In this document: positions 1 to 60,312 of the stretch, in pieces
Layout: each line of letters begins with the position of its first letter
How positions within the stretch are numbered: the stretch's first letter is position 1
Source: Octopus sinensis
Lineage: Eukaryota
Length of the DNA: 64,000 bases
Reading direction: 5' to 3'
Assembly: GCF_006345805.1 (NCBI RefSeq)
Contig: NC_043003.1
Coordinates: 74,338,001 to 74,402,000, forward strand
Program-made: the position numbers and the translations under genes
The notes under the pieces: model-generated
Seen by the model: the letters and a program-made list of their open reading frames with translations, nothing else
Database searches by the model: none
Told to the model about the DNA's origin: nothing

Positions 1-2318
1 CAGCAGCCAAAATTCGACATAAGCTGCTTCATAATGTGCATTAGAAGCACGATGTGACGAAATATTTTAATATAGATGTCAGGTTTCGAGTCTATGATAT
101 CAAATATCTATAAAATTCAAGAAACTAACAAAATTAATGACCGACTTAAGTAGAATGTACAAACTCAGAATAGAAATTTACTTCTGTTTACCAATGATCG
201 GCGCATTCGATGCTACTGACTGAATTATTGGACAAGCACTTTTAACTAATCGCTTCAGGTTGATGAAATCTGTGTGTGTATGTGTGTGTGTGTATGTGCG
301 TGTGTGAAAACCGTCCATTAGACGTAAACTATTTCGAGGGAACGAGCACGGTTCTTGGACTGTAGACTTATTTAAACAGTCATTCAGTTTTGTTATCGCC
401 ACTTGGTGCTTTCATATATTCAAAATGGTTGTAAATAGTTGAGTAATCTCCGTTCACAGAGTCTTTGAGTAGGATCAAGCACGCCATTATTCTTCCTCCG
501 ACAAAATCATTAGAAGATAAATGGAAATACGTTAACGGACATGAGCAAGGTTATATTTCGCATATTTCATGTAAGATGTTGAATAATCTAATATCTTTGT
601 CATGTAGATAATCACACACTTAAAATATAAATATCTACAAGATTGTCATCAAATTTATGTGATATGTCTTTCGTTGTCCCACTCTATGTATTATTTGAAA
701 TAAGCATTACAGATCAATTCATGAAAGACAAACAGATAGATATTATTTTACACACACACTTTATACATATAAATTAGAAAAAGGTGAAGTTGGTATATTG
801 TTAATACCAGTCGTGCTGAGCTATCTAGATATGTCAGCTGTAATGCGATGAGATAGCTTACGTTAAATTGTCTGGACAACATAATTCAGAATAGTAGATG
901 AATTGTTTTGTAGCGAAATACAAACTAAACTCTCTTAAATATATCCACTGCTTTACACTTCTATTAAAGTAAGTTATTTAAAAGATAAACAAGTTGATAT
1001 TTAAACAAATTAGTGATTACCATACTACAATCATTAAAATATGACCTCATATGTTATATCTATGAAGAAATAAAAAAACGCGGATATATAACATCAAAAT
1101 AGTTTATTCAATAGAAATGTCACTGGTTATTAGGGGCATTTTCAAATAAAGTTGTTATTCACCCCCGTGATTCTACATTTGTAGAGGAAATAGCGAGAAT
1201 TGATAGGTATTTTTTCTGTTATTAATGCCAAAAGATGTGCAAGTCTCCAGCAAGGTAATTCAAAGGAAAAGAAGGACGTTGTCTTAGAATGCTTCATATC
1301 TTTTTAGAGGTCCAATTAGAGGGATGATAAGTCTTGTAATAACTCCTTAGAAAGGAAGGCACCTTCAAGTAATTCTTATGTTGATTATATATTTACTGTT
1401 AAAGAATGCAATAGTTTCAATTTATTTATATTTGGAAGGCAGCTTTGGAAAGTAAGGGTCTCATCATCATTGATCTTATGTTTCCCTGTACCTGTTGTTG
1501 TAATAGATTGAAAGAACATCAGATTGTGGTATGTTTTCTCCAACAGTTGCAATGCATTTTGAACAACTGGAAATCGTTGGGAAGTGCTGTGTTAAATATC
1601 CAGTGATATTTATTTATAGTTAAAAGCCTCTGTAGCAACATCTTGGTACTTCTCAATGTAATAATTTGATTTCTAGTGTATTAGCTCTAGTAAAATGTCA
1701 GTACAATTATATATTTTTTGAAGCTAAATAGAATGTCTACAGGATTTGAGATTTTATTTGACTCGCTCTTAAAAATTAACATCGTTCTTTCGCTAGTTAC
1801 TCATTTAGTGGTTTTCTGGCGATAAAAAATAAGCGTGCTCCGTCAAATAAAATACGTAGAATTTTCATCTTTACCAGCTTCTAATAACCTTTGTTTTTAA
1901 CTACGTAAATGTTTTCTGTAGCTTCTAAACTGCTTCTTTTCCTGTTTCCCCATATGCTCAGGTGCAGTTTTGAACGCTCTCATCAGAGGCCAACAATTTA
2001 TGTAATCATTTGGTTAGAGACAAATATTTGCTTTCTTCAGAGAAATCCTTGTAGTTTACAGAAAGAGATCAGTTCAATTTCGCTAGGACTTCAATTTTGA
2101 ATGATATTTGATGTCAGATACATTATTCTGACGCTGCGTAATTTGTAATGTGCGTGTCTATTTATTTCATCAAAATCGAATATCGCCAAAATACTCTATT
2201 TTCTGTCTTTCTTTAAATATGTAATTCCTCCAGTTCTTTATTTAAGAGATGAGGAGTTATGTACATTATTTACATTATTTACGATTAACGGATAGTTCTC
2301 CTCATCTGTTTTGTTGTT

Positions 2319-2364
2319 AACACAATGTTTCGGCTGATGTAACCTCCGGCCTTCATCAGGTGTT
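2319..2364 (-). ncRNA. Minimal type-I hammerhead ribozyme motif
   Basis: Minus strand reads aacac-CTGATGA-a-ggc...gcc-GAAA-catt-gtgtt. Stem I aacac/gtgtt pairs fully. Confidence 0.75.
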
Positions 2365-2444
2365 TCGGGGAAATTTTGAACCTCGGTTCTCATTCCTAAG
2401 GTATTTTCCATGTTATTATTATTATTATATTATTATTATTATTA

Positions 2445-2485
<41 letters not shown>

Positions 2486-2518
2486 TATTATTATTATTAT
2501 TATTATCATCATTATTAA

Positions 2519-2579
<61 letters not shown>

Positions 2580-2668
2580 ATCACGCCATATGCCCACGGG
2601 CATATGGCGTAGTGGTTAAGAGCGTGGGCTACAAACTTCAATATTCCGAGTTCGATTCCAGGCAGTGA

Positions 2669-2721
<53 letters not shown>

Positions 2722-2768
2722 TGGAAAAATACCCTAGGAATGAGAACCCAGGTTCAAAATTTCCCCAA

Positions 2769-2813
2769 GTCACCTGATGAAGGCTAGAGGTTATATCAGC
2801 CGAAAGTTGTGTT
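2769..2813 (+). ncRNA. Minimal type-I hammerhead ribozyme motif (base after GAAA deleted)
   Basis: gtcac-CTGATGA-a-ggct...agcc-GAAA-gtt-gtgtt. Confidence 0.7.
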
Positions 2814-4059
2814 AACAACAAATAAATGAGGACAAATATCCGTCAACTGTAAATAATGTAGATAATCTGATTCCTACTTTGCTTCTTTGGCTTCCTGTTG
2901 TATTTGTTAATCAATGCCTTTCACTTTCTGTATGAACGCAGGTGGAGTAATACAGATCGTTGACATGTTACTGTAATTCAGGTAGTATTTTGATGGTCTA
3001 TAAGTTTCCTCATTCTTTTAATTATGCCACCATTAAATGTTCATACTATATTTTCATGACCAATGAAAATTCTTAGTTTTTGCACTTTGCAAAACTATGA
3101 AATAAATTAACAAACTGTCAAACACATAAAAAACATCAAACTGCTCTGAGTTGATAAAGTACTTAGCTAAATATGTATAACAGTAAAAATCGGGCATTCA
3201 AAATTATGTATCTCTATGCACAATCTGGAGAAGGCGACCAGATTTCTAAAGATATCCAGAAATATTCATGTGAATGTAGATTTCCTTTGTACAAATTGTC
3301 GATTGAATTGTATTTTCGTAGCTCAATGTAGATTTTGAACTCTTTGTATGAAAGGGTACATAATGACTGAAAACTCTGGTTTGATATTGCCAAAAGACTG
3401 ACAGATTTCTTGAATGTACTAGTTTTGATATGCAGCAAAACGAAGTGAGTAATTTGATCGTAGTTAGATTTAGTGTTCGCTAAGTTAAAGATTGGACTAA
3501 TGCTCACTCCTCACTTTGAAAATTAGGCAATTATATAGCAAACAAATTAGTGGTGTGAATGGTAGACATTTAAATTAAATATAGAGGCAGTGACAGATGC
3601 TGAAAAGTGAGAGGTTTTCCAGTGAGCAAAAGCTACAGAGACTAATATCGATCTATTAATGAGTACATTGATGAGGAGAAGCATCGATAGAAATGCTACG
3701 CAAACGAGGTGATAGTAGTCGCATTGGTCCTCGATTATTTCTTTAAAATGTCACACGAGGACTGTATTGTGAAAGCTAAGGTTGGAAGCTATACCAAGGG
3801 GATAGAAGAACAATGATGTAGTGAATGGGCCGCATTTCGGTCCTTGGTGAACTAGGTTTGGCACCCGTTACTCGTTCTTATGTGGTTTGTGGTTTCTCAG
3901 TTTAGATTCTCTTGAATATTCTGGCTGAGCTCTGATTAGGGAAAGTCACAAATATAAATTCGTGCAATCCTGACGGCCTGCTGCAGATTTCAATATATGA
4001 CACGGAATGCTGTGTGACGCCGATAAAAGCAACTGGAATACGGAATATATAACTGAAAT

Positions 4060-9880: not shown

Positions 9881-9964
9881 ATTATTTACATTATTTAAAT
9901 TTGACGGATATTTGTCCTCTTCTTCTTTGTTGTTAACACAACATTTCGGCTGATATACCCTCCA
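9881..9964 (-). mobile_element. Third, 5'-truncated copy of the hammerhead-SINE tail, broken inside stem II at a (TA) run
   Basis: ATTATTTACATT...GACGGATATTTGTCCTC...TTGTTGTTAACACAACATTTCGGCTGATATACCCTCC matches 2260-2347. Confidence 0.8.
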
Positions 9965-21134: not shown

Positions 21135-21381
21135 GTGGCCTTTTAAAGCCTAGCCAGGCTTATGGGCCCGGTTTCCCGGTTTCTATGGCGCATGTATTCC
21201 CCAGCTGGACTATACGCCAATCCATAGCAGCGTTACTCATTTTTTCCAGCTGAGTTGACTGGAGCAACCTGAAATGAAGTGTTTTGCTCAAGAACACAAC
21301 GCGTCGCCCGGTCCAGGAATCGAAATCACAATCTTACGATCATGGTGCTCACATCCTAACCACTAAGCCACGCGCTTCCAC
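21135..21381 (-). mobile_element. tRNA-derived SINE family D with a CORE/Deu-like central block
   Basis: Minus strand: A box TGGCTTAGTGG, B-box-like GATTTCGATTCC, then GTGTTCTTGAGCAAAACACTT. Confidence 0.8.
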
Positions 21382-30045: not shown

Positions 30046-30428
30046 ATTCTTTTACTCTTTTACTCTTTAGCTTGTTTCAATCGTTTGACTGTAGCCATGC
30101 TGGAGCACCTCCTTTAGTCGAGAAAATCAACCCAGGACTTATTCTCTGTAAGTCTAATACTTATTCTATCGGTCACTTTTGCCGAAGCGCTATGTTCCGG
30201 TGACGTAAGCACACCAGCATCGGTTGTGAAGCGATGCTGTGGGGAAAAACATATAAACACACGTACATATATACGACCGGCTTCTTTCAGTTTCCGTCTA
30301 CCAAATCCACTCACAAGGCTTTGGTCGACCCGAGGCTATAATAGAAGGCACTTGCCAAAGGTGCCACGCAGTGGGACTAAACCCGGAACCATGTGGTTGG
30401 TAAACAAGCTACTTAGCACACAGCCACT
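30046..30428 (-). mobile_element. tRNA-derived SINE family C, full length
   Basis: Minus strand: AGTGGCTGTGCTAAGTAGCTTG...GGTTCCGGGTTTAGTCCCACTGCGTGGCACCTT head and a (GAGTAAAA)n tail. Confidence 0.9.
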
Positions 30429-31749
30429 AACATTGTTTAAGAAAAAAAAATCGAAATGTTTCAATGTATCTTCATTATTTTAAACAAGCTGATATTCCCT
30501 CCTTTCAGTTTTCGTGACAAAGTCATCAAATCGCTTTTGATGACGCAGAGCACCGGATCTAGCTGAAAGGCAAACACTTGACCAACCCAATAACCCCATT
30601 GCTTGGATTGTTGCCGAAGTTTTGTGTGGTTACGTGGTGAATATAGCTCCTTTCGAAATTCTTTTTTTCTGTCGCTTTCTGTTAATAGATATTGGATCTT
30701 TTTTTAGTATCATAATGTACCAGTCGCAGTTTATGACTTATCAACGTTACAGAAAATCGCATTAAATGACACAATGCTATCCTCGATAAAAAGTCATCAT
30801 AAATTTTGTACTGATTTCTAGCTGAACAACTACTTACGCTTAGGAGAGAATGTGTGGCGTAATTCGATGGATTTAGCCTTTCTTTGTGGGCCATAAAATT
30901 GTCTTCTTCAATAGCTTCAAACGCTTCCTAACTATCGAGTTACCCATTTTGCACATGCATAACGATACACTAAGTCGTCCAACATTATCTGCAATGCACT
31001 GTGATTGCAATCCAGTTTTGCAGTAATAACATGGATAATCATACTAATGTCCGTGCGAATCAATTCGTCCACAATCCAGTTATTCTTCTGCAGTCATAAT
31101 AGATAGTCTACTTTCTCTTTGATGTATGTTTTCTTTTCCTTACATTCGAAGCATCATATATTGAAATTACTCTTGCCAAAGATATCAACACTACAAAATC
31201 TATAACCTTTTATAAAATTCGGTCGGATTGCATGTCTCCATACGCACTTTCGGGAAAATATAATACCATCATGTTTGAGCTTAGAACTACTTAGCTGCTA
31301 GAAATGAAGAATAGAAAGAACAGTTACTGTTGAGAAAGTTATTCAGTCAACCCGTAAATGTTGAAGGACATTTTGCATTACTTTCGGGACGGAAATCCTC
31401 GTTCCATGCTTTGTGTGCATACATGTGTTGTTCCGTGTGCGCGTGAATATACATATATCTACATGACTGAGTGTGTCTGAGTGTGTGAGTGTTTGTGAGC
31501 GTGTGTGTATATATGTGTGTGTGTGTGCGCGCGTGATCGTGTCCCCAACAAGAGTGCGGCGGGGGAAGTATGATTTTGTCCATTCCCGTAAATTAGCGGT
31601 ACAAAAGTAAAGATAGATAGAACAAGGACCTAGCCTTAAAAACAAAAGTACCTGCATGTTTTTGCGCGAATAAAAGAATTATTGTGGCGCCACTGTATAG
31701 TTGCATCTCAAAGAGTGAAACAACACAAGATACATACATAAAATATCTC

Positions 31750-33010
31750 TTATTGTTATTCAGCCTACTCACAGCTAAATAAATGTCATTTAGAGTTGCT
31801 TCAAATGCCATCTTCTCTATAACTTGAAGGCATTCGATTTTTTCTACCATCCTCATGTCAACGGATGATGGTCTATTCAAAAGTGCAGAAAAATATTCTA
31901 ACCAATGCTTATGAATATAGGCAGAGCCAGTCAAAAGCAAATGTCCATTAGCTGCTCTGACTGGAGCTATTGAAGAATATTTTGATTCCCCTACCCCCTT
32001 AACATAAAAGTACAAACCCTTGGCATAATTTCTATCAGCTGCTTCTTGTACTCCTTTTGTTCTGTCATTTCACCATTCCTATATAATTTCCCTTCGAGCA
32101 GTCTGCACTTTCCCTTTCATCAGTGAGACATTGTCGATGTATAAATGCTAACAACGGTATACAACCTAATTTTGTCAGTTTTATATGGCATGACATGGAT
32201 CGTTTAGATATACCACTTGGAAATTCTGCAATAGAGGATACTAATAAATCCCTGAGAGCAAACCCAACACCAGATTCTCTACGCTGATCCTCAGGTAAGC
32301 CTCTACAGAAGAGAGTATATCCATACGTAGTTTCATTTATTTGATCCTCAGCAGAGAGATGAGTTTCAGAGAGAGCAACTATATCAAGGGAATATGTTTT
32401 AAGCTCACATGTAATATGTGACGTACGATTTTCTGGCATCTTGTTGAAATTATCATCTAGAAGTGCTGGTACATTTCAACGGCAAAAGTTCACATGATGT
32501 TTTTTTTTTTCTCGAAGATATGACCACGACAGCAGGATGACGATCGGGTCAATCCTGTGACACATTGGGACACCTGCCGCTGCAGAACTTATCCGCTGAA
32601 GATCCCAAGCCCTTTTTTGCAACTTACCGAATTTGTATGAGATATTTCAAGGTAAGTAGCAAGTGACTTTTTATGTTTCTGTCAACCAAGTCAATGACTC
32701 TACTGAGATTTGTTGTACAAGTAGTACCTGTGGAGATGAATAATTTTCCGTGGATGTAGCTCGTACTGCACTACTCCCACCTATTGGCCCAAGAAGACGT
32801 TCGGGCGTGTGACATGAGAACTGACAACACCGAGAACTTCCCAGGCCTCGGGTTTTATTTTGGAGATTTCCTTGTAGCTAGATTACTAACTAAGGTTAAA
32901 GAGTTTCTAACTGCCCATGAGCTAGGCTATCCCGTGCCAGACACAAAACCGACACTCAAGCACTCAGTAGAGTGGTTAAATATCGTTCCGGTGTCCGAGG
33001 TAGAGCAGTT
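31750..33010 (-). mobile_element. RTE-clade (BovB-like) LINE: 5' UTR, APE N-terminus and pre-RT linker; internally deleted and 3'-truncated
   Basis: ORF 32065-32439: PENRTSHITCELKTYSLDIVALSETH...GYTLF...RESGVGFA. ORF 31593-32015: APVRAANG...WLEYFSALLNRPSSV...AVSRLNNNK. Confidence 0.9.
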
Positions 33011-36595: not shown

Positions 36596-37474
36596 ATTGT
36601 TTCTTGTCCTTATCAACTGTTTCTGTTTAACAATAATACTTTGTTGGGTGCATAAAATGGTAAAACCATGCATGTATGATGTTTGTAGTAAAAAAGAAAA
36701 TTTGGCAAACTATGTTATGTGGGACTTACTACAAATTTGAAAAATGCTAAACCGTCGTTCTGCTTTTTAACAATTATCATATCCTGGCATCTGAAGGTAG
36801 AGATACGATATTTTGACCAAAAGAACTGGCTATTGCAAGGAAAATTAAATGTTGAAATCAACGCATTTGGCCAAATTTTGACATACGGCAGTTTAACATA
36901 ATAGCAACGATATGTAAGAAAAATTAAAAACGTAGTCACATGTGTGTATGAGTGTGTGTTCGTGTGTGATGTATGTTTACATATATATATATATAAGTGT
37001 ATATGTAGACATGTATATGTGTGTGGGGGTGCGTGTGTATGAGTGTGTATGTGTGTGTGTGTGGTGTGTGTGAGTGCGTATAAATGTATATATATGCGTG
37101 TATAAATTTGAAGGTGAGGCTGTGTATTGTTTCACTTGTCAGCGTCTGAATTGATGTTTACATCGGTTAAAGAGATTTTGTCGTCAATTGTCTGTTATCT
37201 CGACAACAGTTGGTGTTCGACAATAAACACCGATAGTATAAGAGCAAGTCAGGAATTAGCTGTGAATTCAATATGCTATACAGACATTTGGAAATGACGA
37301 TGCTCAAATATGACTAAAGGCTCCAGGCTGGAAGCTGTAAAATGTTAAACAAATTCAATTATAACACACTCTTTTACAATATGGAAAACTCATTATACTA
37401 ATTATCATTAGCACCATTAGCTTCCTCTTCATCACTGACAATATTTTCACCGTCATCATACCTATCATCATTTT

Positions 37475-38259
37475 TTCATCGTCATCATCGTCGTCTCCAT
37501 CATCATCATAATCATCATCATCATTATGGTCATCTTCCTCGTCATCAACTGCATCATCATCATCGTCACCCTCGTCGTCACCATCTTCATCCCTATCCTC
37601 CTCATCATCATCATCATTATCATTATCATCATCATGGTTAATTTCCTCGTCATCAACTGCATCATCGTCATCGTCATCGTCGTCCATTTCATCCCCATCC
37701 TCATCCCCATTATTATCACCATCATCCTCAACATTGTCGTCGTCGTCATCATCAACATCATCATCATCATCATCATCATCATCACCATCAGTAACAGTAT
37801 TTTCTTTAATTTTTCCAGTGATACCCCCACTTTTTAACTAACAATATTTTCATCATCATCTCCAGAATAGCACTCAATGTCATCATACCACTCTTCCCAG
37901 TCTTTTGCTATGATCTCCAAGAGAAGCAATATCCTTATTTTCCTCTTCCACCTCATCCTCCTCGTTGTCACCGTTTCATCAGAAGTAGTTCTCACCGTAT
38001 TCTGGACGTAAATATCATGTTTTCAGTGCAAATGAAATAACCATTGTCAACAATCTTGTTATCATTTTTATCATTCTCATTTTCGGCGATGTCGTTTTAC
38101 TTCTTCGTTATCATTGTTTATATTTGTCATCGTCTTCATTATTGTCGTCACAGTGATCATCATCACCATCGTCTTAATCACGTCTTTGCCACTACAGGTA
38201 CTACCTCCACCGCTGCCGCCAAATGCAGCAGCAGCAACACCAATTCTGCCACCACCGCC

Positions 38260-42911: not shown

Positions 42912-43615
42912 ACTAACTCACAGGAAAGGTATAAGTACCTGGGGATAAGCGAAAGAGATGGTACACAACTCTCCACAAGAAAGCTGCAAATACCTGTGGA
43001 TAAACGGAGATGGTAAACAACCCTCACAAGAAAGCTCCACATTCCTGGGGATAAACGAAGGAAATAGTACACAACATGCTACTATGAAAGAAACAATACG
43101 AAAGGAGTATTACAGAAAAAATACAACTCATACTAAAACCTGAATTCAACTCCAAATACCGCATCGAAGTCATTAGTGTACTGGCACATCCAGTAGTCTG
43201 ATACAGTTTTAACATCCTTAACAAAATTCCCAAGCCTGGATAGCACGACAAGAAGACTACTATCACCTAAAACCATGCGCCACTCAAAAGCAGACGTTCA
43301 TCATGTGTACCTTCCTAGAAGTAATAGGGGAAGGGGAATGATGCAGTTAGAACTGTGCTATAAGACCTCGACAATAGCAATGGACAAGTACTTATCTAGT
43401 AATGAGGACTGGATGCAAACACGAATGCAGCAAACCATCACAATCAATTGTCAACGAAGCTTGAAAGCTCGCAAGGGAACTTGACATTAACTCTGAATTA
43501 GAAACCACTGCCATGAAGAAAGCAAAACGAATGAAACAGGCTGCAAAAAAGAACAGGCAGAAACAAATTGATGCGTGGTGGAGCCAGACATGGCATCTTA
43601 AAACGGGAACTGTTC
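42912..43615 (+). mobile_element. R4/Dong-clade RLE retrotransposon fragment (post-RT region), truncated at both ends
   Basis: YKYLGI, MKETIRKEYYR, HSKADVHHVYLPRSNRGRGMMQLE and EDWM are colinear with the 49877-51466 ORF. Confidence 0.9.
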
Positions 43616-43616
43616 C

Positions 43617-46600
43617 TGTCTTTAAGGAGATAAGGAGAAGAGGCTTGAATCCCGTACTCCAATATGGGTCTCACCAACGTGACATAGAGCGGTAGGAATA
43701 TGGCTGCTGTGAGCATCCCGAATGACCGTCGAATCAAGAACAGAATTCCGCGTGCTTTGTTGGCAGCATGGACGCACTGGCCCAAAGGCGAAAAGGAAGA
43801 ATCCACCAAGATACCCAGGTCCTTTACCTGATCGGTCCTCTCCAGCAGCAGACGACCGGGCTCGAAATCAAGATGAGTTGCAGGAGGGGAGCCAACAAAC
43901 AGATGACAGCACATTGACACGTTCAGACACAGGTCCCATTCGTTAGACCATCTCCAAATTTGGTGGAGGCATCGACGAAGATCCTCTATATCACCGCGAG
44001 GAGCGACCAGTTTGACATCGTCGGCAAATAGAAGGGTGTGTTGCGTGAGGTCGTCGGGCAAATCATTTATGAAGACTAAGAACAATGAGGACCCAAGCAC
44101 TGAACCTTGAGGCACGCCACTGCTCGCACTGGAGACGTCGGACCGCGAACCATTAACTTGGACTTGGAAGGAGAGATCTGAGAGGAAGGCACCAACCCAA
44201 CTTACAATATCCGGATGGAAACTATATGCTTGAAGCTTGACAAGTAATAGGCGATGGTTTACTGAGTCAGAAGGCTTTGGCAAAGTCCAATAAAACGATG
44301 TAAACAGCATTACTATCATCGAGGATGCGCGTCACCAATTCTTTCCTTACCAGTAAGTTGGTCAAGCATGATCTCTTCGGTACGAAGCCGTGTTGGGAAT
44401 CAGAGATAGAGGCTGTGTTTTGGAGGTGGAGCATCATACTTTTCTTAAGGTTGGTTTCGAACATCTTGCTGATTATTGATGTAAGGGAAACCGGTCGGTA
44501 GTTAAGCGGGTCTTCGCGGCTCCCTTTCATGAAAATTGGGCAGATTATCGCTGTTCTCCAGTCCGCAGGTATAACACCCGTCGCCAATGACATATTGAAT
44601 AGACGTGTTAAGGGCTCGCAGATGACCGGAGCCAACGCTTTGATAACCCGTGGGTGTATGCCGTCAGGGCAGTGACCCTTGTTGACATCGAGGTCTTGAA
44701 TAACGCGTTCGACTTCGTCCCGCGTGATGACCGATCGAAGAAATGGAGGTACCGATATATCAAATGGAGGGGGTTCACGACCATCATCTTGTTTGAAAAT
44801 AGTTGAAAATGTCTCGGCAAATAATTGACTCTGTTGATAAGGGTTCTCAATCGATACGCCTGTTGAGTCTACCAACGTTGCAATTTGGTTGTTCAAGCGG
44901 GAATTCCGTTGGCAAAGAAGGTTTTTGGATTGCTACTGGCGTTCGCCGCGATTTTGTATTCATATCTGAAGCATTCTTCCTTTTCAATTTTCACGGCCCG
45001 GTCTCGTTGAGTTTTGTACACCTCAAAAGCTGCAGTCGAATCCAGATTTTTGAATTCAGCCCAAGCAATATCTCTGAGTCGAAGTTCTCGTTTAACCTTC
45101 TTCGTCACCCAGGGCTTGTATTTCTTCTTCTTGGGAAGCCCAACGGGAACTGCCTGGTCAGTCAAACAGATTACATATGCTTTGAAGGATGACCATAGTT
45201 CGTCAACTGAGGACAACGTCATCAGGGATCGCCAGTCCAGAAGCGCGGAAGCCTCGGTTAGAATTTCAAGATTAATTGCAGAGAAGACTCTACGTGACAG
45301 CGAAGTAGTCGTAAGCGTAGAAAAAGTTGTGTGCATGACGAACTTCAGGACCGCATGATCACTCTTGGCAAGAGGGGCGCACTGATCTGGGATAGCGGGA
45401 GAATACCAGATCCAACATAGATGGCTGCTGCCCAGACCGATGCTTTGACGGATATTCAACATGTTGCCATAGAAAACAATCTTCAGCCACGTCAAGAAGG
45501 GCCTGGCCGAACCGGGAAGATGACGTACAAATTGATGCGGGCCAATCGATCGTGGGAGCGTTGAAGTATCCTAATATCAAACAGTCATGAGAAGCTGAAA
45601 CGAATCTTATCGCTTCGAGTAAATGAGCATCGTCCTTGGGTCGACAAGAGGCGGCATGTAGACAGCTAACACGGGTAGGCAAAACCCGGATAGGCTCAGC
45701 TTGCAATAGACGGCATCAAATTTTGTTGTAGGTTGAGCATTTGTGGGTAGAATACCGCTGGACGGTTTGAGATCAGATTTAACATAGACAGCAACACCTC
45801 GTCCTCGCCTTTTTTCTCTGTCACATCTGAAGAGGGCGTAGCCCTGTAGGTGGATTTCTGAGTTCTTTACTGCTGGAGTCAGCAGCTCTCGATGATAGCT
45901 ATCACATCAGGGGAATCACGCATTGCCAGTGTAAATAGTTCGCTGAACTTTGGAAATAAGGAGCACGGGTTGGTATAGATGATGCTGAGCTGTGAAGTTT
46001 GAGGGGCGGGAGTTGGGAAACAAGCAGAATAAGGGGTATCAGAGATAGCATCGTTGACGGGGGTATCTACTTTACTTCGATTCGCCCTAAATTCACTCTC
46101 CCTGTCAGCACTACAGCATGCGACCAGAGGTAGGACTTGATTATTTGTCCATCTTGGATGCGTAAACTCTTCTTTCCCATCTGTTTTCTCATCTTCAGTT
46201 CGGATATTATGTTTCTCCGGCGAATTCTCTCTCTCAGTGAGTATTCCTCGCGAAAACCCATATTGGGGTCCTCCCATGCATGCATCTGAGCTCTGTTCAG
46301 AAAGGTTGAAGCCTCCTGATCGGAAGAAAAGATTACTCCTATTGGGCGTGGTCTAGTGTCTGAGGTTGAGTTCGCTTGGAATCTTCCTAGTCGAGCGACC
46401 TTATGGATACTGACATTTTCGTTGACAGACAACAATTCTCCAACTAAAATGGAAACAAAATTTATGTCTTCTTTTAGGCGGTTTATGCCTGTATCACAGG
46501 TGGATTCAGCTTTACCATAAATTATTGCTGATCTTGAGTGGGCAAAATGGCCTTTCTGTTCTCTACTATGAGCTGCGGCATTCTATTCCTCGTTGGATGA

Positions 46601-47035: not shown

Positions 47036-47689
47036 TACCTTTTATTGTAACAACACAATTAAATGCACGATAAAAAGTTATGGAATTAAGCACCTACTAC
47101 TATATACATACAACTGAATTCAGAAATTTAAAAATATATACATAACATTGAACTCAGAAAGTTATTTAAAAAAAAGAAAAAAAAAATCTTCGACGAAAAT
47201 ATCAGATAATATGTGTGAGTGAATATACATATATATACATATACATATGCATGTGGTGAAGAAGAAAAGAGAACGGGAAAAAAAAATAAATAAATAAATA
47301 AATAAACGTAAACAGGTTTGACCTTTTACTGACCATTAACGTCCTTTGTCTCCACCATCTACCGTGGTTATTTATAGACCCAAAGAACATGAATTCTTTA
47401 ACCACCCATTCTCCAACACAATGGAGTGTTGATGGTGGCTGTGGCTACACATTGAAGATGATGATGGTGATGGTGATGTTGCTGATGATGGTGATGGTGG
47501 GGAAGATGATAGTAATAACAATAATAACTGACAGATCCCGTCTTTTTCCCTTTCTTTTCGTTTCCTTCTCCGTATTTTATTCTCATTATTTCGAACTAAT
47601 ACAGACACAGTAAGCCTTGAAGAAAGGAAGAGGAGGAAAGGAGGAAAAAAAAATGTCCGGAGATAAAACTATCAACAAAAAAAATACAG

Positions 47690-50600
47690 ACGAATATAGA
47701 TCTGCTAGTCTTAAGAAGCGGCGCTATGAGCAATGCTTACATGTAGTGAACCCTAAACTGACAGATCCATCTAATATAAGAATGGATGCTCGTCATGCTT
47801 CAAGGTCAACAAATCAAACAATAAACCGCATTGGTCATTGCGCGGATTACAAAAGACCACGTACCCGAAAATTGAACCAAATCCTGATTGAAAAATCAGT
47901 TACTGGATCAAATCTTCCCAACACACAGGAGCTGGACGAACCCCACAACCGGAATATTGCAACAGATGGCCATCCATGCTCATCACCAAATAATCAAAAG
48001 AAAAAGAAGGAAAATGGTCTAGGGAAGATAATAAAGAAGTTCTCGAGGCCTTCTACCATGCCATATATTTCCCCACAGATAAGTCTAGCACTGTACAAGC
48101 ATACTTAAACTGGAGACAGAAACACCCTGAAGTAAGACCCTACATAGACAGTAACAAGCTTGCCAATGTTAGAAGAAACATTATAAAAAAGAAATTACTG
48201 ACTGAAGTAGAGATTGATCAGGTTAGACAAGCAATATCGGATAAAATGAACGAAGCTGCAGTTAGAGAAGATAATACAGAGGAAATGATTATAGAGCAGC
48301 CCAGGGCGGATAAAAACGAAGAGAGGATTGAAAGAGTTATTATAAGTGATAGGCAAAGTGAAATACGCCCTGAACCAATCATAAACACTAAGACAGATGA
48401 GCATCAAATAGATAAAGAAAGTCACACAAATATTGACCCAACAGAACTACATGAGCTAAAAAATCAAATCATGATTGAATGGCTGAAAATTAAAGAAACC
48501 AGCATGGATGAGCGTGATACACTTCCTAAAATCCGCAACTCTAACCAAAACATGAAAATAATTGGTAAAATCCGGCTTGCACTTAAGGATATAATTCAGT
48601 TAATGATGTTGATATCACAAACCTCAACCACCTATACTATGCATCCGCGAAAATCTCAACGATCCTATGTGGTGTAAAGATTAGAAAACGGCAACAGTCC
48701 CACAAAAAGCCTTCTTGGCAAGAGCGTCTGCAACAACAAATTAAAGTATTTAGATCTGACATTGAATATTTGAAAAACCTTAAGGCTCACAAGACTACCA
48801 AACCTACAAAAACCCAAAAATTACTGAAAAAATACAATATGAAAACTATACTTGATATTGATGCCACCATAGAAACCATCAAACAAAAGGTATCTGCCAA
48901 AGCTACCCGCATAGCGAGGTATGAAAAGCGTGTTAGATTTTTCAAGGACAACAACATGTTCAAAAATAACACCAAGAATTTTTACAGGAAGATAGGAATA
49001 ACAGCGTTTACTGCAGGGTCTGTACCATCAAAAGAAGAAGTGCAGAGATTTTGGAATAAAATCTGGGCAGAAGAAAAAACACACAACGAAAAGGCCCCCT
49101 GGATTGACAGAATATCTACAGAACTGGACCCCTTAGAAGAGCAAAAGTGGGAGGGTGTCAAGGTAGAAGATATAAGATCTGCTCTCAGGAGGTCAAGCAA
49201 ATGGAAGTCTCCAGGAAAGGATAAAATTCCTAACTTCTGGCTGAATGCCTTCCCAGAGAGCCATGCACTGCTAACAGAACTGTACAATGATGTTCTGCAA
49301 CACCCTAGTAGGATGCCTCCTTGGCTAGTTAATGGGTTAACATTCCTGCTTCCAAAAAGTGAAGAAACAAATGAACCAAAAAACTATAGACCCATAACCT
49401 GCTTAACAACTATGTACAAAACTCTAACATCTGTCCTGACGGAATATACCTATAGTTTTTTAACAGACAGCAGCATATTCCCTAATGAACAGAAAGGATG
49501 TAAACGTGGATCCTACGGCTGTAAAGACCAACTACTCATCAATAAGATGATCTTAGAAGATTGTCACAAACGACACAAAAACTTATCAATAGCCTGGATA
49601 GACTATAAAAAGGCTTTTGATAGCCTACCACATAGCTGGATTAGGAAATGCCTTGAAATGTATAAGATAGCACCAACTCTGCGAAACTTCTTGACTGTAA
49701 GTATGAGATGATGGAGAACCACACTAACTCTGAACAGTGACAGTGAATCCCTAAAAGCTGGTGATGTAAAAATTTCGTGTGGCATTTTCCAGGGTGACTC
49801 ACTGTCACCACTCCTCTTTTTTTTATCCTTAATACCTCTCTCAAAGCTGCTCAATGACGCGCAGTACGGGTATAAAATGTTTGATAAAAATATAAATCAT
49901 CTCGTTTACATGGATGATTTAAAGCTTTTTGCAAAAAATGATCAACAACTCAAGGGCTTACTAGCGATAGTCAAACAATTCAGTGACGACATCAGAATGC
50001 AGTTCGGCCTCGATAAATGTGCAAAGGCTACCTTTATCAAAGGAAAAATGACAGAAACATCTAACGTTAACCTTGACCAACAGAATGTCATAAAAGAACT
50101 AGACCCAGCGGAGAGCTACAAGTACCTAGGGGTAATTGAAGGGAACGGAATAAGGCATTCAGAGATGAAGGAAAGGATCAGGAGAGAATGCTATCGAAGA
50201 GTGAGAGCAATACTCAAGACAGAGCTGAATGCAAGAAACAGGATCGAAGCAATCAATGCATTAGCTATACCAGTCGTGACTTACAGTTTCAATATTGTTA
50301 ACTGGTCAATTACTGAAATATGTCAGCTCGACAGAAAAATAAGGAAACTGTTGACAATGCATAGAATGCACCACCCTAAGGCAGATACAGAACGACTCTA
50401 TCTGCCAAGAAAAGAGGGAGGCCGTGGTCTTTTGCAACTGGCAATAACAATGAACATTGCTACAATTGGCCTAGACACCTACCTGAAAAACTCTGAGGAC
50501 TGGATGTTAAAATTTGTCTCAAAACATGAAAACAAGAAAGCATCATACTCAGTCACAAAACAGGCAAAGGAATATGTAAGTGAATTCCGAATACAACCAA

Positions 50601-51690
50601 TTTCGGAATTAGAGATAGATATACAAGAAACAAGCACAGAAAAAGCTAGGCGCATGAAAACCCGTGCCAAAACTGTGGCCTTAGATATTCTGAATAATAA
50701 ATGGCAAGAAAAACCTCTCTACGGCAAATACCCAAAGAGAGCGAATAATGCAGATATCGACAAAGCCCTGACCCATCAATGGCTAATGGCCTCTGGCTTA
50801 AAATCTGAAACAGAGGGGTTTATCATAGCAGCTCAAGATCAATGCCTACCAACAAGAAACTATCAGGCCAACATATTAAAGATCAGAAGCAGTCCAACGT
50901 GTCGTGTATGCAAGCAACAAAATGAAACCATTGACCATGTGGTCTCCAAGTGCAGTCTTCTAGCGCCTACAGAGTATCTCAACAGGCACGATAGAGCTGC
51001 ACAATATATTCACTGGGTAATCTGTAAAAACCTGGATTTGCCCCAGGAAAAAAACTGGTGGGAACAGAAACCACCCCCAGTGCTTGAAAATGACCACATC
51101 TCACTCCTCTGGAACTTCACCATTCAAACTGACAGGAAGATAGATGCAAATAGGCCAGACATCATATTGAAAGACTTCAAACAAAGAACATGCCTCCTCA
51201 TTGATATGACTGTCCCAATCGATATAAACGTATCTGTCAGGACCTACCAAAAACTGAGCAAATATAAAGATCTTGAAATAGAAATCAGCAAAATGTGGAA
51301 GCTGAAGACTAAAACAATACCTGTTGTCATAGGTGCCCTGAGAATGATAGCAAAAGGGGCTGATAGCTACCTAACTCAGATACCAGGAAACCTCAAAATG
51401 GCAGAAGTTCAAAAGATAGTGCTCATGGGAACTGCTCATATCCTACGCAAAATACTCTCTATGTAACCTCAAGGTTTAAAACAACCATAATTTTCGGTTT
51501 AAAAAAAAAAAAAAAAAAAAAACTTTTTTTTTTTCTTTTAGACATTCATTAGTACAACATCCCCACCCCCCAAATATATGGCACACTAGGCATAACAACA
51601 ACGTGAACTTCCAACCCTGTTGTCTCTTGAGGTCTCTGGGTGAGACTTGGAGCCAACTTGTACAAATATAAAGCAAAAGTCAAACATAGA
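47690..51690 (+). mobile_element. Near-full-length R4/Dong-clade RLE non-LTR retrotransposon; single ORF with two N-terminal frameshifts and one nonsense codon; ends in (TAA)n
   Basis: N-terminal KWSREDNKEVLEAFY (about 48011). RT motifs WKSPGKD, NYRPITCL, EQKGC, WIDYKKAFDS, GIFQGDSLSP, YMDDLK. CCHC CRVC...HVVSKC, then RHD, PDII, IDMTVP, KLSKY. Stop at 51466, 3' UTR to about 51690. ORFs 48770-49711 and 49877-51466 share one frame. The 5' boundary is approximate. Confidence 0.95.
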
Positions 51691-52246: not shown

Positions 52247-53203
52247 ATACCACCTAATAAATATGATCATACCACCTAATAAATATGAAGAAGAAGAAGA
52301 AGAAGAAGAAGATGAAGAAACAACAAAAGCTATAAAACAAATGAAATCCAAACTAAAAATAGAACAGCAACGAACCATGATAAAACGATGGCAAGAAAAG
52401 CCCCTTCATGGTAAATACTGGACTAAACTAAACGCAAAAGAAATAGACAAAGAAAAATCCCAGCAATGGTTGAGAAGCTCAAGTCTCAAAGCAGAAACAG
52501 AGGGATTTTTAATTGCAGCACAAGACCAAAGCCTCCCCACCAGAAATTACCAAAAACATGTAATGAAAAGAAATATTACAAGTAACTGCAGAATATGTGG
52601 AAATGGACAAGAAACAATAAATCATATTATCTCTAGCTGCCCAATCCTGGCTAAGAAGGAATATATTCATAGACATGACAGAGTTGGACCCTACATACAT
52701 TGGAAGCTATGCAAACATTATGGAATAACAACAGAAAAATGACGGTATAGGCACACACCAGAAAAGGTCACAGAAAACGAGAAAGCAACCATACTCTGGG
52801 ATATGCCGATACACACAGATAGAGAAATTAAGGCCAACAGACCAGATATAGTTGTCAGAGATCATGAAGAAAAAAATGCTTTCTAATTGATGTATCAATA
52901 CCGGCAGATGACAACGTGTCTCTAAAAGAAATGGAGAAACTCTCAAAATACAAAGACCTGGAAATAGAGGTAACTAGAATGTGGAATCTGAACACAGAAA
53001 CAATTCCTATCATAGTAGGTGCATTAGGCATGATAAAACAAATAACATACAGAAAATTGCACTACTAGGCACTGCACACATCCTACGCAGAACACTTTCC
53101 ATACAATAACCATCAGAGCATCACAACAAATCACAGCACATACCCAAGGCCCATAGAGCTACGCTCGGTAGTGAAGTGTACGCACGCTATAAAAATAAAA
53201 CTA

Positions 53204-58188: not shown

Positions 58189-58240
<52 letters not shown>

Positions 58241-58433
58241 TATATAATTAGGGCTTAGTAAAATAAAATAAATTACTTTGCCACATACTGAACTTAGTAG
58301 AAATAGCAGCCCCCAAAAATTTTTCTTTGCATTTCTACTACTTAAAGAAAATTTCTCTCAGATAATGTTTACTCCAGACAGCTCACGAAGGTTTGGGGGT
58401 AAATACAGAAAAATATCACAAGTACATAGATCG

Positions 58434-58496
58434 TTTGAGTACGTCAACGTTTCAAGATTAGCCAAATAAAATCAGCATTTCTTTCGTCAGCTCAAA
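58434..58496 (-). ncRNA. Type-I hammerhead ribozyme, intact core
   Basis: Reverse complement of 58646-58708. Confidence 0.88.
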
Positions 58497-58645
58497 ATTT
58501 CTTAATTTGGATTTGGAAACACTAAAGAGAAGGAACTTTACCTATCAGCGAACTTGTCGCTTCAGATGAACCGACATCTGAAGCGACAAGTTCGCTGATA
58601 GGTAAAGTTCCTTCTTTTAGTGTTTCCAAATCCAAATTAAGAAAT

Positions 58646-58708
58646 TTTGAGCTGACGAAAGAAATGCTGATTTTATTTGGCTAATCTTGAAACGTTGACG
58701 TACTCAAA
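58646..58708 (+). ncRNA. Type-I hammerhead ribozyme, intact core
   Basis: tttgag-CTGACGA-aaga...tctt-GAAA-cgttgacg-TA-ctcaaa. Six-bp stem I, stem II aaga/tctt, short stem III, GUA cleavage triplet. Confidence 0.88.
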
Positions 58709-58999
58709 CGATCTATGTACTTGTGATATTTTTCTGTATTTACCCCCAAACCTTCGTGAGCTGTCTGGAGTAAACATTATCTGAGAGAAATTTTCTTTAA
58801 GTAGTAGAAATGCTAAGAAAAAATGTTTTTGGCTGCTATTTCTACTAAGTTCAGTATGTGGCAAAGTAATTTATTTTATTTTACTAAGCCCTAATTATAT
58901 AATGTAATATTTTGAATTCGCCTTAAATGGTCCTTTTACATACTGAACACTTGGTGAAATTGATTAATTAATTACTTTTACCCTCAATTGTTGATATAT

Positions 59000-59099: not shown

Positions 59100-60312
59100 T
59101 ATATTTATATAAGAAAATGGAGCAAAATATATAGTGGATACTAATTTTATTTGTATGACGATAAAAACATAGTAAATCATTTATTACAGTTAAAATTAGA
59201 AGGAATATAAATTGATGGAATAAAAGCGTAAAAAGTGCCTACACATGTTTCAATCTGATAATTCGATAAACAGAATTTCAGATCCGCAGGATTCAGACCA
59301 TGTTAAGAGTTTCAGATTGAAAAAAAAGGTTAAACAAATATCATTAGGGCTGTTTACTGCAAAAAGCTACTGCTTATATATATTTTCAAAGGAATTCGAA
59401 TTGGTTGGGAAAGCATACAGAATAAGATGGATGAGGGCTGCATATTGATATACCCATGTAATGTAAACATTAAGTTAATGATAAAGATGGGTAACAGGGG
59501 AGGCATTAGCAAGAAAAATCATGCTAAAAGACTATGAAGGATTCGAAAATTAGACGGTTATAGGTATTGGGGGTGATTATGTAATCAATTAAAAAGGGTA
59601 TAGTCCTTTAGTAGTAGTGAAGGACATTATGTAATTAGGATAAGATGTTGTGAAGACGTTAAGTATATAGAATAAATTAAAGAAAAGGTGAAGGGTAAGA
59701 AAATACAAATATAGAGGGGAATATATTTTATCTAGGGGGGAAAATAACGAAATGGAAATAAAATAGAGGGATATTATTTAATTGCATATAAATATAACTA
59801 TAAATTAGAGTGTTTGTCACTATATATTGCGAAAATTCTCTCAATATATCATCGATAAGAGTAGTTTCCCTAAAGAGAAACTTATATCCTCCAATATAAT
59901 ATAATTATATATAGATGTTTATTTACTTTGCCGGTTTCACTCTTTGGAAAAAGATTGTCAAAAGTAACATGTAGACGTATGTTTACGTTAATTATTGGTT
60001 GTTACAAATTGCTACATTACATATATACAGTCGTTGGTAACAAGGACATATTAAGGACATAAAAAAGTTTAACAAGTTCCTTAAAATATTGGGCACAAAA
60101 GATATGATTATTTATGTAGTAATCTTTTGTGCCCAATATTTTAAGGAACTTGTTAAACTTTTGTATGTCCTTAACATGTCCTTGTTACCAAAGACTGTAT
60201 ATATGTAATGTAGCAATTTGTAACAACCAATAATTAACGCAACCAAACTTCTACATGTTAATTTTGACAATATTTTTCCAAAGAGTGAAACCGGTAAAAT
60301 AGATAAACATCT
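59100..60312 (-). mobile_element. Penelope-type non-coding element with an eroded hammerhead (59235-59292) and a 5' fold-back palindrome (59913-60312)
   Basis: Minus strand CTGcGGA-tctga...tcagat-t-GAAA-catgtg-TA. Arms 59913-60103 and 60122-60312 with an 18-nt loop. TA/TG runs on both sides. Confidence 0.7.

What the first reader, a model, noticed from the sequence alone, without database searches (positions are those of the whole stretch)
2231..2866. Pol III SINE carrying a hammerhead ribozyme, folded back on its own 5' end: candidate Penelope-mobilised 'ribozyme SINE'
Seen: tRNA A and B boxes, then (TAA)n, then a CUGAUGA/GAAA hammerhead with pairing stems I and II, then a short tail. The unit occurs twice head-to-head. 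The palindrome apex (13-bp stem, 2-nt loop) lies at the start of the tRNA head, and a third tail copy is at 9881-9964. Known: minimal hammerheads and inverted 5' copies characterise Penelope-like elements, whereas SINEs normally borrow LINE tails. Schistosoma Sm-alpha is a precedent for a tRNA-type repeat with a hammerhead. Inference: this is a SINE mobilised by a Penelope RT/GIY-YIG enzyme, and the apex records self-primed hairpin second-strand synthesis after cDNA reached the RNA 5' end.
Basis: partly seen in the sequence, partly recalled or inferred. Interest (0 to 1): 0.85.

Follow-up and report, generated by a model that had tools for sequence, protein, structure and literature searches.

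The report
Penelope retroelement with tRNA-headed terminal repeat

Summary
The motifs are real, but this is not a separate SINE. Head + (AAT)n + hammerhead tail is the pseudo-LTR (pLTR) of an RT/GIY-YIG Penelope-like element.
- The ORF's end sits directly upstream of the head in 29 of 30 loci anchored on it.
- One copy reads head-tail-ORF-head.
- The tail encodes the ORF's first ~50 codons, in frame also in an intact relative.

Back-to-back arms, one long and one short end (53 of 58 pairs) and 10-16-bp target duplications (42 of 67) are known Penelope hallmarks. Whole-arm fold-back is contradicted: in 25 of 53 pairs each arm holds sequence the other lacks.

What looks new is the tRNA A/B-box module inside the pLTR of a coding element. 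Copy number steps 5.7-fold across its +1, and the 2.4-kb sense strand lacks TTTT terminators (P about 0.02-0.2). That fits a Pol III start, but a native palindrome at the same spot is a live rival, and RNA-seq was uninformative. The window's left arm lacks most of the head, and both hammerheads there are decayed.

The parts
2231..2414 (-). Left arm: pLTR tail (start of the Penelope ORF) ending at the long 3' end, including the ~30-nt optional PLE 'tail' extension
2319..2364 (-). Minimal type I hammerhead of the left arm (stem I 5 bp, extra A before stem II, CpG-decayed helix III; predicted cut between 2324 and 2323)
   Evidence: sequence; architecture as in PMC4209133 section 5
2415..2576 (-). 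Expanded (AAT)n run of the left arm
2577..2582 (-). Last 6 nt of the tRNA-like head; the left arm is truncated or deleted here
2583..2610 (.). Palindromic apex (13-bp stem, 2-nt loop); extends a 5-bp palindrome native to the parent element at head -7..+5
2598..2672 (+). tRNA-derived head of the pLTR (A box 2605-2615, B box 2648-2659); in coding copies it follows the ORF stop codon by about 30 nt
2673..2717 (+). (AAT)15 run, variable between copies; a target for other LINE insertions in some copies
2718..2866 (+). Right arm: pLTR tail ending at the short 3' end; likely ORF start codon at 2740
2769..2813 (+). Minimal type I hammerhead of the right arm (core 2774-2780 and 2802-2808; C after GAAA deleted; stem I weakened)
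   Evidence: sequence
2222..2229 (+). Possible decayed target-site duplication, left copy (7 of 8 nt match 2868-2875); weak on its own
2868..2875 (+). Possible decayed target-site duplication, right copy
9881..9964 (-). Separate 5'-truncated copy of the same pLTR tail (short end, starts inside stem II)

Best explanation
The 2231-2866 unit is one decayed, back-to-back insertion of the pseudo-LTR of a protein-coding Penelope-like retroelement, and that pseudo-LTR begins with a tRNA-derived A/B-box head that likely starts the element's RNA as a Pol III promoter. Shown: the order ORF stop, ~30 nt, head, (AAT)n, start codon, hammerhead, two alternative 3' ends, rest of the RT/GIY-YIG ORF; thousands of copies; one long and one short end per pair; target duplications; a sharp loss of copies just upstream of head +1. 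Inferred: the element's RT starts inside the RNA at the two end sites, as shown in vitro for anole Poseidon. It primes one cDNA on each nicked target strand, and the two cDNAs join by microhomology or at the native palindrome. When RT starts in the upstream pLTR it runs off the RNA 5' end a few nt before the head, giving the SINE-like short copies; when it starts in the downstream pLTR it gives copies that carry ORF 3' ends. The hammerhead would cut only as a dimer and need not be used for insertion.
For: ORF end directly upstream of the head in 29 of 30 loci (query's own locus included), tail downstream in 30 of 30. 19 of 30 RT-anchored loci run on into the head. RT PF00078 E 1e-9. 3 of 10 extended loci have the tail leading in frame into the ORF, and L123 has the head at both ends. 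Intact relative P0001 (847 aa) is 44% identical over the N-terminus including the hammerhead-encoded stretch, and 57% over the endonuclease pieces; its C-terminal part matches GIY-YIG clusters at 0.97. Exact 20-mer counts: 734 at -122, 843 at -30, 4811 at +4, 8038 at tail start. 20 of the 25 arms that reach the head start stop there; 4 of 70 head hits extend 25 nt or more upstream. Long+short ends in 53 of 58 classifiable pairs against 29 expected, P 2e-11; duplications of 10 nt or more in 42 of 67 pairs against 1.7 shuffled. No TTTT in the unit or in the 2.4-kb majority ORF body; 0.27 per kb in 63 kb of copies against 1.95 per kb in RLE-type LINE copies of the same T content. Unspliced frame conserved. 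ORF-linked and solo heads equally diverged (91.6% and 91.9%) with the same majority bases. 2 of 130 loci carry N-terminal ORF fragments between the arms.
Against: No direct evidence of Pol III transcription: three RNA-seq runs look unstranded, depth follows copy number, and no molecule starts were called at the head. The TTTT deficit is modest (Markov nulls P 0.11 and 0.20, synonymous shuffle P 0.048), the copies are not independent, and the control is one LINE group. Palindromes at pLTR 5' ends occur in rotifer Penelopes with Pol II-like promoter motifs (PMC3846280), so the step could come from the native hairpin. The +4 pattern allowed CpG decay (though exact-match rates in RT-anchored copies were similar, 6 of 18 against 8 of 19). 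Arms of one insertion share alleles more than chance (17 of 22 against 10.6; 20 shared variants against about 9), which fits one template RNA or one source locus and does not by itself favour two cDNAs. An uncapped Pol III RNA has no obvious route to translation. Every long ORF match has stops, so no active copy was seen.
Confidence: 0.6

Rival explanations
1. The unit is a Penelope pLTR, but the tRNA head is a captured passenger. The element is transcribed by Pol II, and the step at +1 arises because cDNA folds back or is resolved at the native palindrome there.
For: The parent has an imperfect hairpin spanning about -18..+17 around the apex. 18- and 38-bp palindromes mark pLTR 5' ends in Adineta Penelopes (PMC3846280). 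Known PLE promoters are described as Pol II-type, some with introns (PMC8557442). RNA data show no start at the head.
Against: Many copies stop at -2..-7 with no inverted head. The boundary coincides with tRNA position 1 and with intact A and B boxes. There is a TTTT deficit along the ORF.
Confidence: 0.27
2. One reading: solo head+tail copies form a self-propagating non-autonomous Pol III SINE lineage mobilised in trans, and this is the main source of short copies.
For: Solo copies keep promoter boxes, RT start sites and no terminator, so they could be transcribed. Solo copies outnumber ORF-linked ones about 6 to 1. pLTR sequences suffice for trans-mobilisation in rotifers (PMC3846280).
Against: No diagnostic variants separate 60 solo from 53 ORF-linked heads, and their divergence is the same. 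The unit is wholly contained in the coding element. ORF fragments sit between the arms in 2 of 130 loci.
Confidence: 0.12
3. The head plus (AAT)n is an ordinary SINE mobilised by the (TAA)n-associated RLE-type LINE and lies next to Penelope fragments by chance.
For: RLE-LINE 3' ends also finish in CTG(AAT)n and sit upstream of the tail in L024, L025, L028, L183 and L191.
Against: 25 of 30 head-anchored loci have the tail downstream. The head is at one fixed place after the PLE stop codon. Target duplications flank the whole two-arm unit. The LINE cases are explained as later insertions into the AAT run.
Confidence: 0.01

Closest known systems
Penelope/Poseidon-type EN+ PLEs (anole Poseidon PAc, PMC11167929; Adineta Pen2a, PMC3846280)
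   Same: Single ORF, RT then C-terminal GIY-YIG; pLTR overlapping the ORF start; hammerhead inside the ORF's 5' end; two 3' ends about 30 nt apart; inverted 5' pLTR with the extension on one arm only; short target duplications; palindrome at the inverted junction.
   Different: The pLTR contains a tRNA-derived A/B-box head and an (AAT)n run, and its 5' boundary is fixed at the tRNA +1. The described PLE promoters are TATA/Inr-like or intron-overlapping. Clade placement was not tested by a tree with named references.
Minimal PLE hammerheads (Cervera and de la Pena 2014, PMC4209133)
   Same: Type I, 5-bp helix I, 6-bp helix II with G10.1-C11.1, an unpaired nucleotide between 9 and 10.1, palindromic 15.2-16.2 positions; pairs on opposite strands 100-700 bp apart were already noted in Schistosoma.
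   Different: None in the ribozyme itself.
Schistosoma Sm-alpha SINE-like elements (as reviewed in PMC6765202; original paper not read)
   Same: Pol III-type promoter followed by a hammerhead.
   Different: Sm-alpha is described as tandem head-to-tail repeats with no coding parent named; here copies are head-to-head and the unit is part of a coding PLE.
TRIMp3 elements: Cassandra, Helenus, Ajax (Kojima 2024, PMC10886601)
   Same: A small-RNA-derived Pol III promoter inside the terminal repeat, probably gained by SINE insertion.
   Different: Those are non-autonomous LTR elements, and the paper argues their autonomous partners must use Pol II and not share that repeat. Here the coding element itself carries the module, and it is a PLE.
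Animal non-LTR retrozymes (bioRxiv 10.64898/2026.07.22.740005)
   Same: Short hammerhead-bearing units related to PLE pLTRs.
   Different: Retrozymes are head-to-tail tandem repeats; the preprint's main text has no mention of tRNA, promoter or polymerase III.

Membership tests
EN+ Penelope-like element | ORF with PLE-type RT | tested here: met
   PF00078 E 1e-9; 44-57% identity to the intact 847-aa relative P0001
EN+ Penelope-like element | C-terminal GIY-YIG endonuclease | tested here: met
   Motifs visible; 57% identity to the P0001 C-terminus, which matches GIY-YIG clusters at 0.97. Pfam scans alone gave no GIY-YIG hit.
EN+ Penelope-like element | pLTR: same sequence upstream and downstream of the ORF, overlapping the ORF start | tested here: met
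   L121-L123; frame conserved in P0001
EN+ Penelope-like element | Inverted 5' copy, optional 30-40-nt tail on one arm, short TSD | tested here: met
   67 pairs in 186 loci; 53 of 58 long+short; TSD 42 of 67 against 1.7
Penelope/Poseidon clade | Phylogenetic placement; no extra Zn-finger linker | not tested
   No named reference sequences were available; domain order and P0001's sequence are compatible
Minimal type I hammerhead | Core boxes, helices I and II, palindromic helix III | tested here: met
   Intact in the family majority and in 84 of 158 copies; decayed in both window copies
Minimal type I hammerhead | Covariation of stems | tested here: inconclusive
   Copies differ mainly by post-insertion and CpG changes; no sister-family DNA was available
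Minimal type I hammerhead | Self-cleavage | not testable with these tools
   Needs an in vitro assay
tRNA-derived SINE | Head derived from tRNA with A and B boxes | tested here: met
   Aligns end to end with genomic tRNAs (best Arg-TCT z 8.6, Cys-GCA z 7.9); donor tRNA unresolved because only 8 anticodon types were in hand
tRNA-derived SINE | Non-autonomous unit distinct from its coding partner apart from a shared 3' end | tested here: not met
   The whole unit is part of the coding element; no solo-specific variants
tRNA-derived SINE | LINE-type 3' end with poly(A) or simple-repeat tail | tested here: not met
   Copies end at two fixed sites inside the PLE ORF; the AAT run is internal
tRNA-derived SINE | Transcribed by Pol III | tested here: inconclusive
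   Step at +1 and TTTT deficit fit; RNA-seq uninformative
Non-LTR retrozyme | Head-to-tail tandem units, each with a hammerhead | tested here: not met
   Arrangement is head-to-head or single; adjacent same-strand tail copies were rare, e.g. L029

The most novel reading that the evidence does not exclude
[quoted passage not shown] Its pLTR copies would then be ready-made SINE-like elements: a route from an autonomous retroelement to Pol III short elements with no separate SINE-LINE pairing.
Probability: 0.3. Interest if true: 0.85.

Novelty: new variant of a known kind. Interest (0 to 1): 0.58.

Why it matters
If the head is a working Pol III promoter, this is a coding retrotransposon with a tRNA promoter in its terminal repeat. 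The TRIMp3 paper argues that is unlikely for autonomous elements. It would also link SINE-like hammerhead repeats (Sm-alpha type) to PLE pLTRs through an actual coding parent. Independently of that, the family gives a large natural data set on PLE integration: one long and one short end per insertion, with mutually non-nested arms, argues for two primed cDNAs rather than self-primed fold-back. That is testable in the existing in vitro Poseidon system. Practically, annotation pipelines would likely label these copies as tRNA SINEs.

Tried and rejected
(1) A 47-nt intron in the tail joining a downstream ATG to the ORF: rejected, because the intact relative keeps the unspliced frame with conserved residues inside the supposed intron, and none of the 15 joints shown was GT-AG (180 were not shown).
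(2) Whole-arm fold-back: rejected.
(3) RLE-LINE as partner: rejected.
(4) Rfam and ARAGORN: no tRNA or hammerhead call on the unit.
(5) No RNA holder listed in the run index. The raw RNA reads laid show the family in RNA on both strands equally, which says nothing on its own promoter.
(6) No relatives with flanking DNA in metagenome contigs and no names for P0001/P0002 clusters, so whether the relative has a tRNA head is unknown.
(7) PDB gave only weak group II intron RT hits.
(8) No sister PLE family long enough for a TTTT control was in the DNA held (5 short foreign matches among 197).
(9) A direct donor SINE for the head was not found: other tRNA SINE families in the sampled DNA match only weakly (E 0.07 or worse).
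(10) Whether the unit equals one of the three octopus SINEs of Ohshima and Okada 1994 could not be checked: paper not held, SINEBase supplement unavailable.

Full report
Observation. The right arm is a complete unit: a 75-nt head with A and B boxes (2598-2672), (AAT)15, and a 149-nt tail with a hammerhead core. The left arm carries the tail on the minus strand (87% alike), a long AAT run, and only 13 + 6 nt of the head. The 13-bp apex is as described. A third, truncated tail lies at 9881-9964. Both window hammerheads are damaged at the CpG of helix III and do not fold better than shuffles. The host genome is 2.7 Gb and rich in microsatellites. That it is an octopus-like mollusc is my guess, not a tool result.

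What it is. The tail has thousands of relatives: 1878 exact matches to a 34-nt hammerhead pattern and 8038 to a 20-mer, with 0 in reversed controls. 4 of 40 evenly spaced 10-kb stretches held an insertion. One locus (L022) had a peptide-coding fragment just upstream of the head. Searching with it gave 30 loci, 29 with the head directly downstream and 30 with the tail (the query's own locus is one of them). Upstream lies an RT (PF00078) followed by a GIY-YIG-type domain; 19 of 30 RT-anchored loci run through to the head. Of 10 loci extended to 8 kb, three have the tail leading in frame into the ORF, and L123 reads head-(AAT)n-tail-ORF-head. An intact 847-aa relative from an unnamed ENA record is 44% identical over the N-terminus and keeps the same unspliced frame through the hammerhead. 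So the unit is the pLTR of a Penelope-like element. The family looks old: copies average 91.7% identity to the working majority, and every long ORF match has stops (53 candidates scored, stricter first look).

Insertion anatomy. Among 186 loci there are 67 head-to-head tail pairs. The 3' ends cluster at two sites about 25-35 nt apart. 53 of 58 classifiable pairs have one long and one short end (29 expected, P 2e-11; 9 pairs unclassifiable), and 42 of 67 are flanked by duplications of 10 nt or more (1.7 in shuffles). These features are described for PLEs: inverted pLTR, a 31-bp tail on one arm, 8-10-bp TSD and junction palindromes in Adineta (PMC3846280, passages), and two internal RT start sites bounding the tail, with the hammerhead overlapping the ORF start, in anole Poseidon (PMC11167929, parts 1-2 of 4). 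In 25 of the 53 long/short pairs the short-ended arm reaches at least 25 nt further 5'; in 14 the long-ended arm does; 14 are level. A fold-back copy cannot hold sequence absent from its template, so two primed cDNAs are likely. Against a two-source reading, arms share alleles above chance (17 of 22 against 10.6; 20 against about 9 variants), so they probably come from one RNA or one source locus. In the window, the right-arm cDNA likely folded back for 13 nt at the apex and then joined a separately primed, more truncated left arm (inference).

The tRNA head. It aligns end to end with genomic tRNAs (best Arg-TCT and Cys-GCA among 26 sequences of 8 anticodon types); a closer likeness to tRNA-Arg-ACG is recalled only. 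Exact 20-mer counts fall from 4811 at +4 to 843 at -30, then only to 734 at -122. Exact-match rates of these motifs in RT-anchored copies are 6 of 18, 8 of 19 and 11 of 21, so the step is not a mutability artefact. Of 68 arms in sets not selected for their 5' end, 20 end at the head start, 5 further upstream and 43 earlier. The exact apex occurs at 342 sites. The parent already has a 5-bp palindrome there inside a longer imperfect hairpin, which offers a non-promoter cause for the step. The sense strand has no TTTT in the unit or the ORF majority (13 runs of exactly three T). The rate is 0.27 per kb in copies against 1.95 in RLE-LINE copies of equal T content, where 32 of 120 runs reach four; null models give P 0.048-0.20. 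ORF-linked (53) and solo (60) heads share majority bases and divergence, so there is no sign of a separate SINE lineage. RNA-seq (3 runs, about 6% of each read) was unstranded in effect and tracked copy number, with no start called at the head.

Hammerhead. The family majority matches the minimal PLE hammerhead in every feature listed by Cervera and de la Pena (PMC4209133, passages and section 5). The core is intact in 84 of 158 copies. Covariation and cleavage were not shown.

Comparison and novelty. The geometry, ribozyme and tail are known PLE features. A tRNA-type Pol III module inside the pLTR of a coding PLE was not found in ten full-text searches. These cover only open-licence PMC and bioRxiv; Repbase/Dfam were not searchable. 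The nearest concepts are TRIMp3 (PMC10886601, passages), Sm-alpha (through the review PMC6765202, passages) and retrozymes (bioRxiv 10.64898/2026.07.22.740005, part 1 of 5 and passages). Also seen as passages only: PMC8557442, PMC13282606 (its supplement was listed, not read), PMC4758252, PMC3531059 and PMC9115989. Ohshima and Okada 1994 and Ferbeyre 1998 were seen only as reference entries; the unit may already be catalogued there or in unseen supplements as an octopus SINE, without the PLE link. Three earlier unchecked scan notes report tRNA-bearing non-coding repeats with Penelope-type ends in other genomes. I did not test them, but this family shows a coding parent that such elements could derive from.

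Verdict. New variant of a known kind: PLE pLTR (about 0.95); the tRNA head as the Pol III start of the RNA (about 0.6); the whole coding element Pol III-transcribed and translated (about 0.3).

Noticed in passing
window 58232-58910: Young fold-back element: two 295-nt arms 98% complementary around a further palindromic core. Each arm shows a CTGACGA ... GAAACGTT hammerhead-like core with pairing flanks, so it may be a head-to-head insertion of a different PLE or retrozyme family.
   Followed up: partly
window 59913-60312: Second fold-back element, 191-nt arms 94% complementary with an 18-nt spacer; no clear hammerhead first box seen.
   Followed up: no
window 47614-51466 (+), fragment 52248-52742: Near-complete RLE-type (R4/Dong-like, label recalled) LINE between (AAT)n runs; related 3' ends are inserted in the AAT run of pLTR copies L024, L025, L028, L183, L191.
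   Followed up: partly
window 43498-46582 (-) and 31593-32475 (-): Decayed APE-type LINE remnants (RT hit E 2e-14 for the first).
   Followed up: no
window 21315-21371 (-), 30371-30410 (-): Heads of two other abundant tRNA-derived SINE families, only weakly similar to the pLTR head.
   Followed up: partly
L033:1581-1630 and L011:1439-1471: 50- and 35-nt pieces of the ORF's N-terminal region wedged between the two arms of pLTR-only insertions, suggesting template jumps on a pLTR-ORF RNA.
   Followed up: partly
L122, L090, L111, L118: Copies in which the ORF or its end joins the tail directly, with the head deleted.
   Followed up: no
window 37355-37837: Long GAT/ATC-type compound microsatellite giving an acidic open frame on the minus strand; probably not coding.
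   Followed up: no
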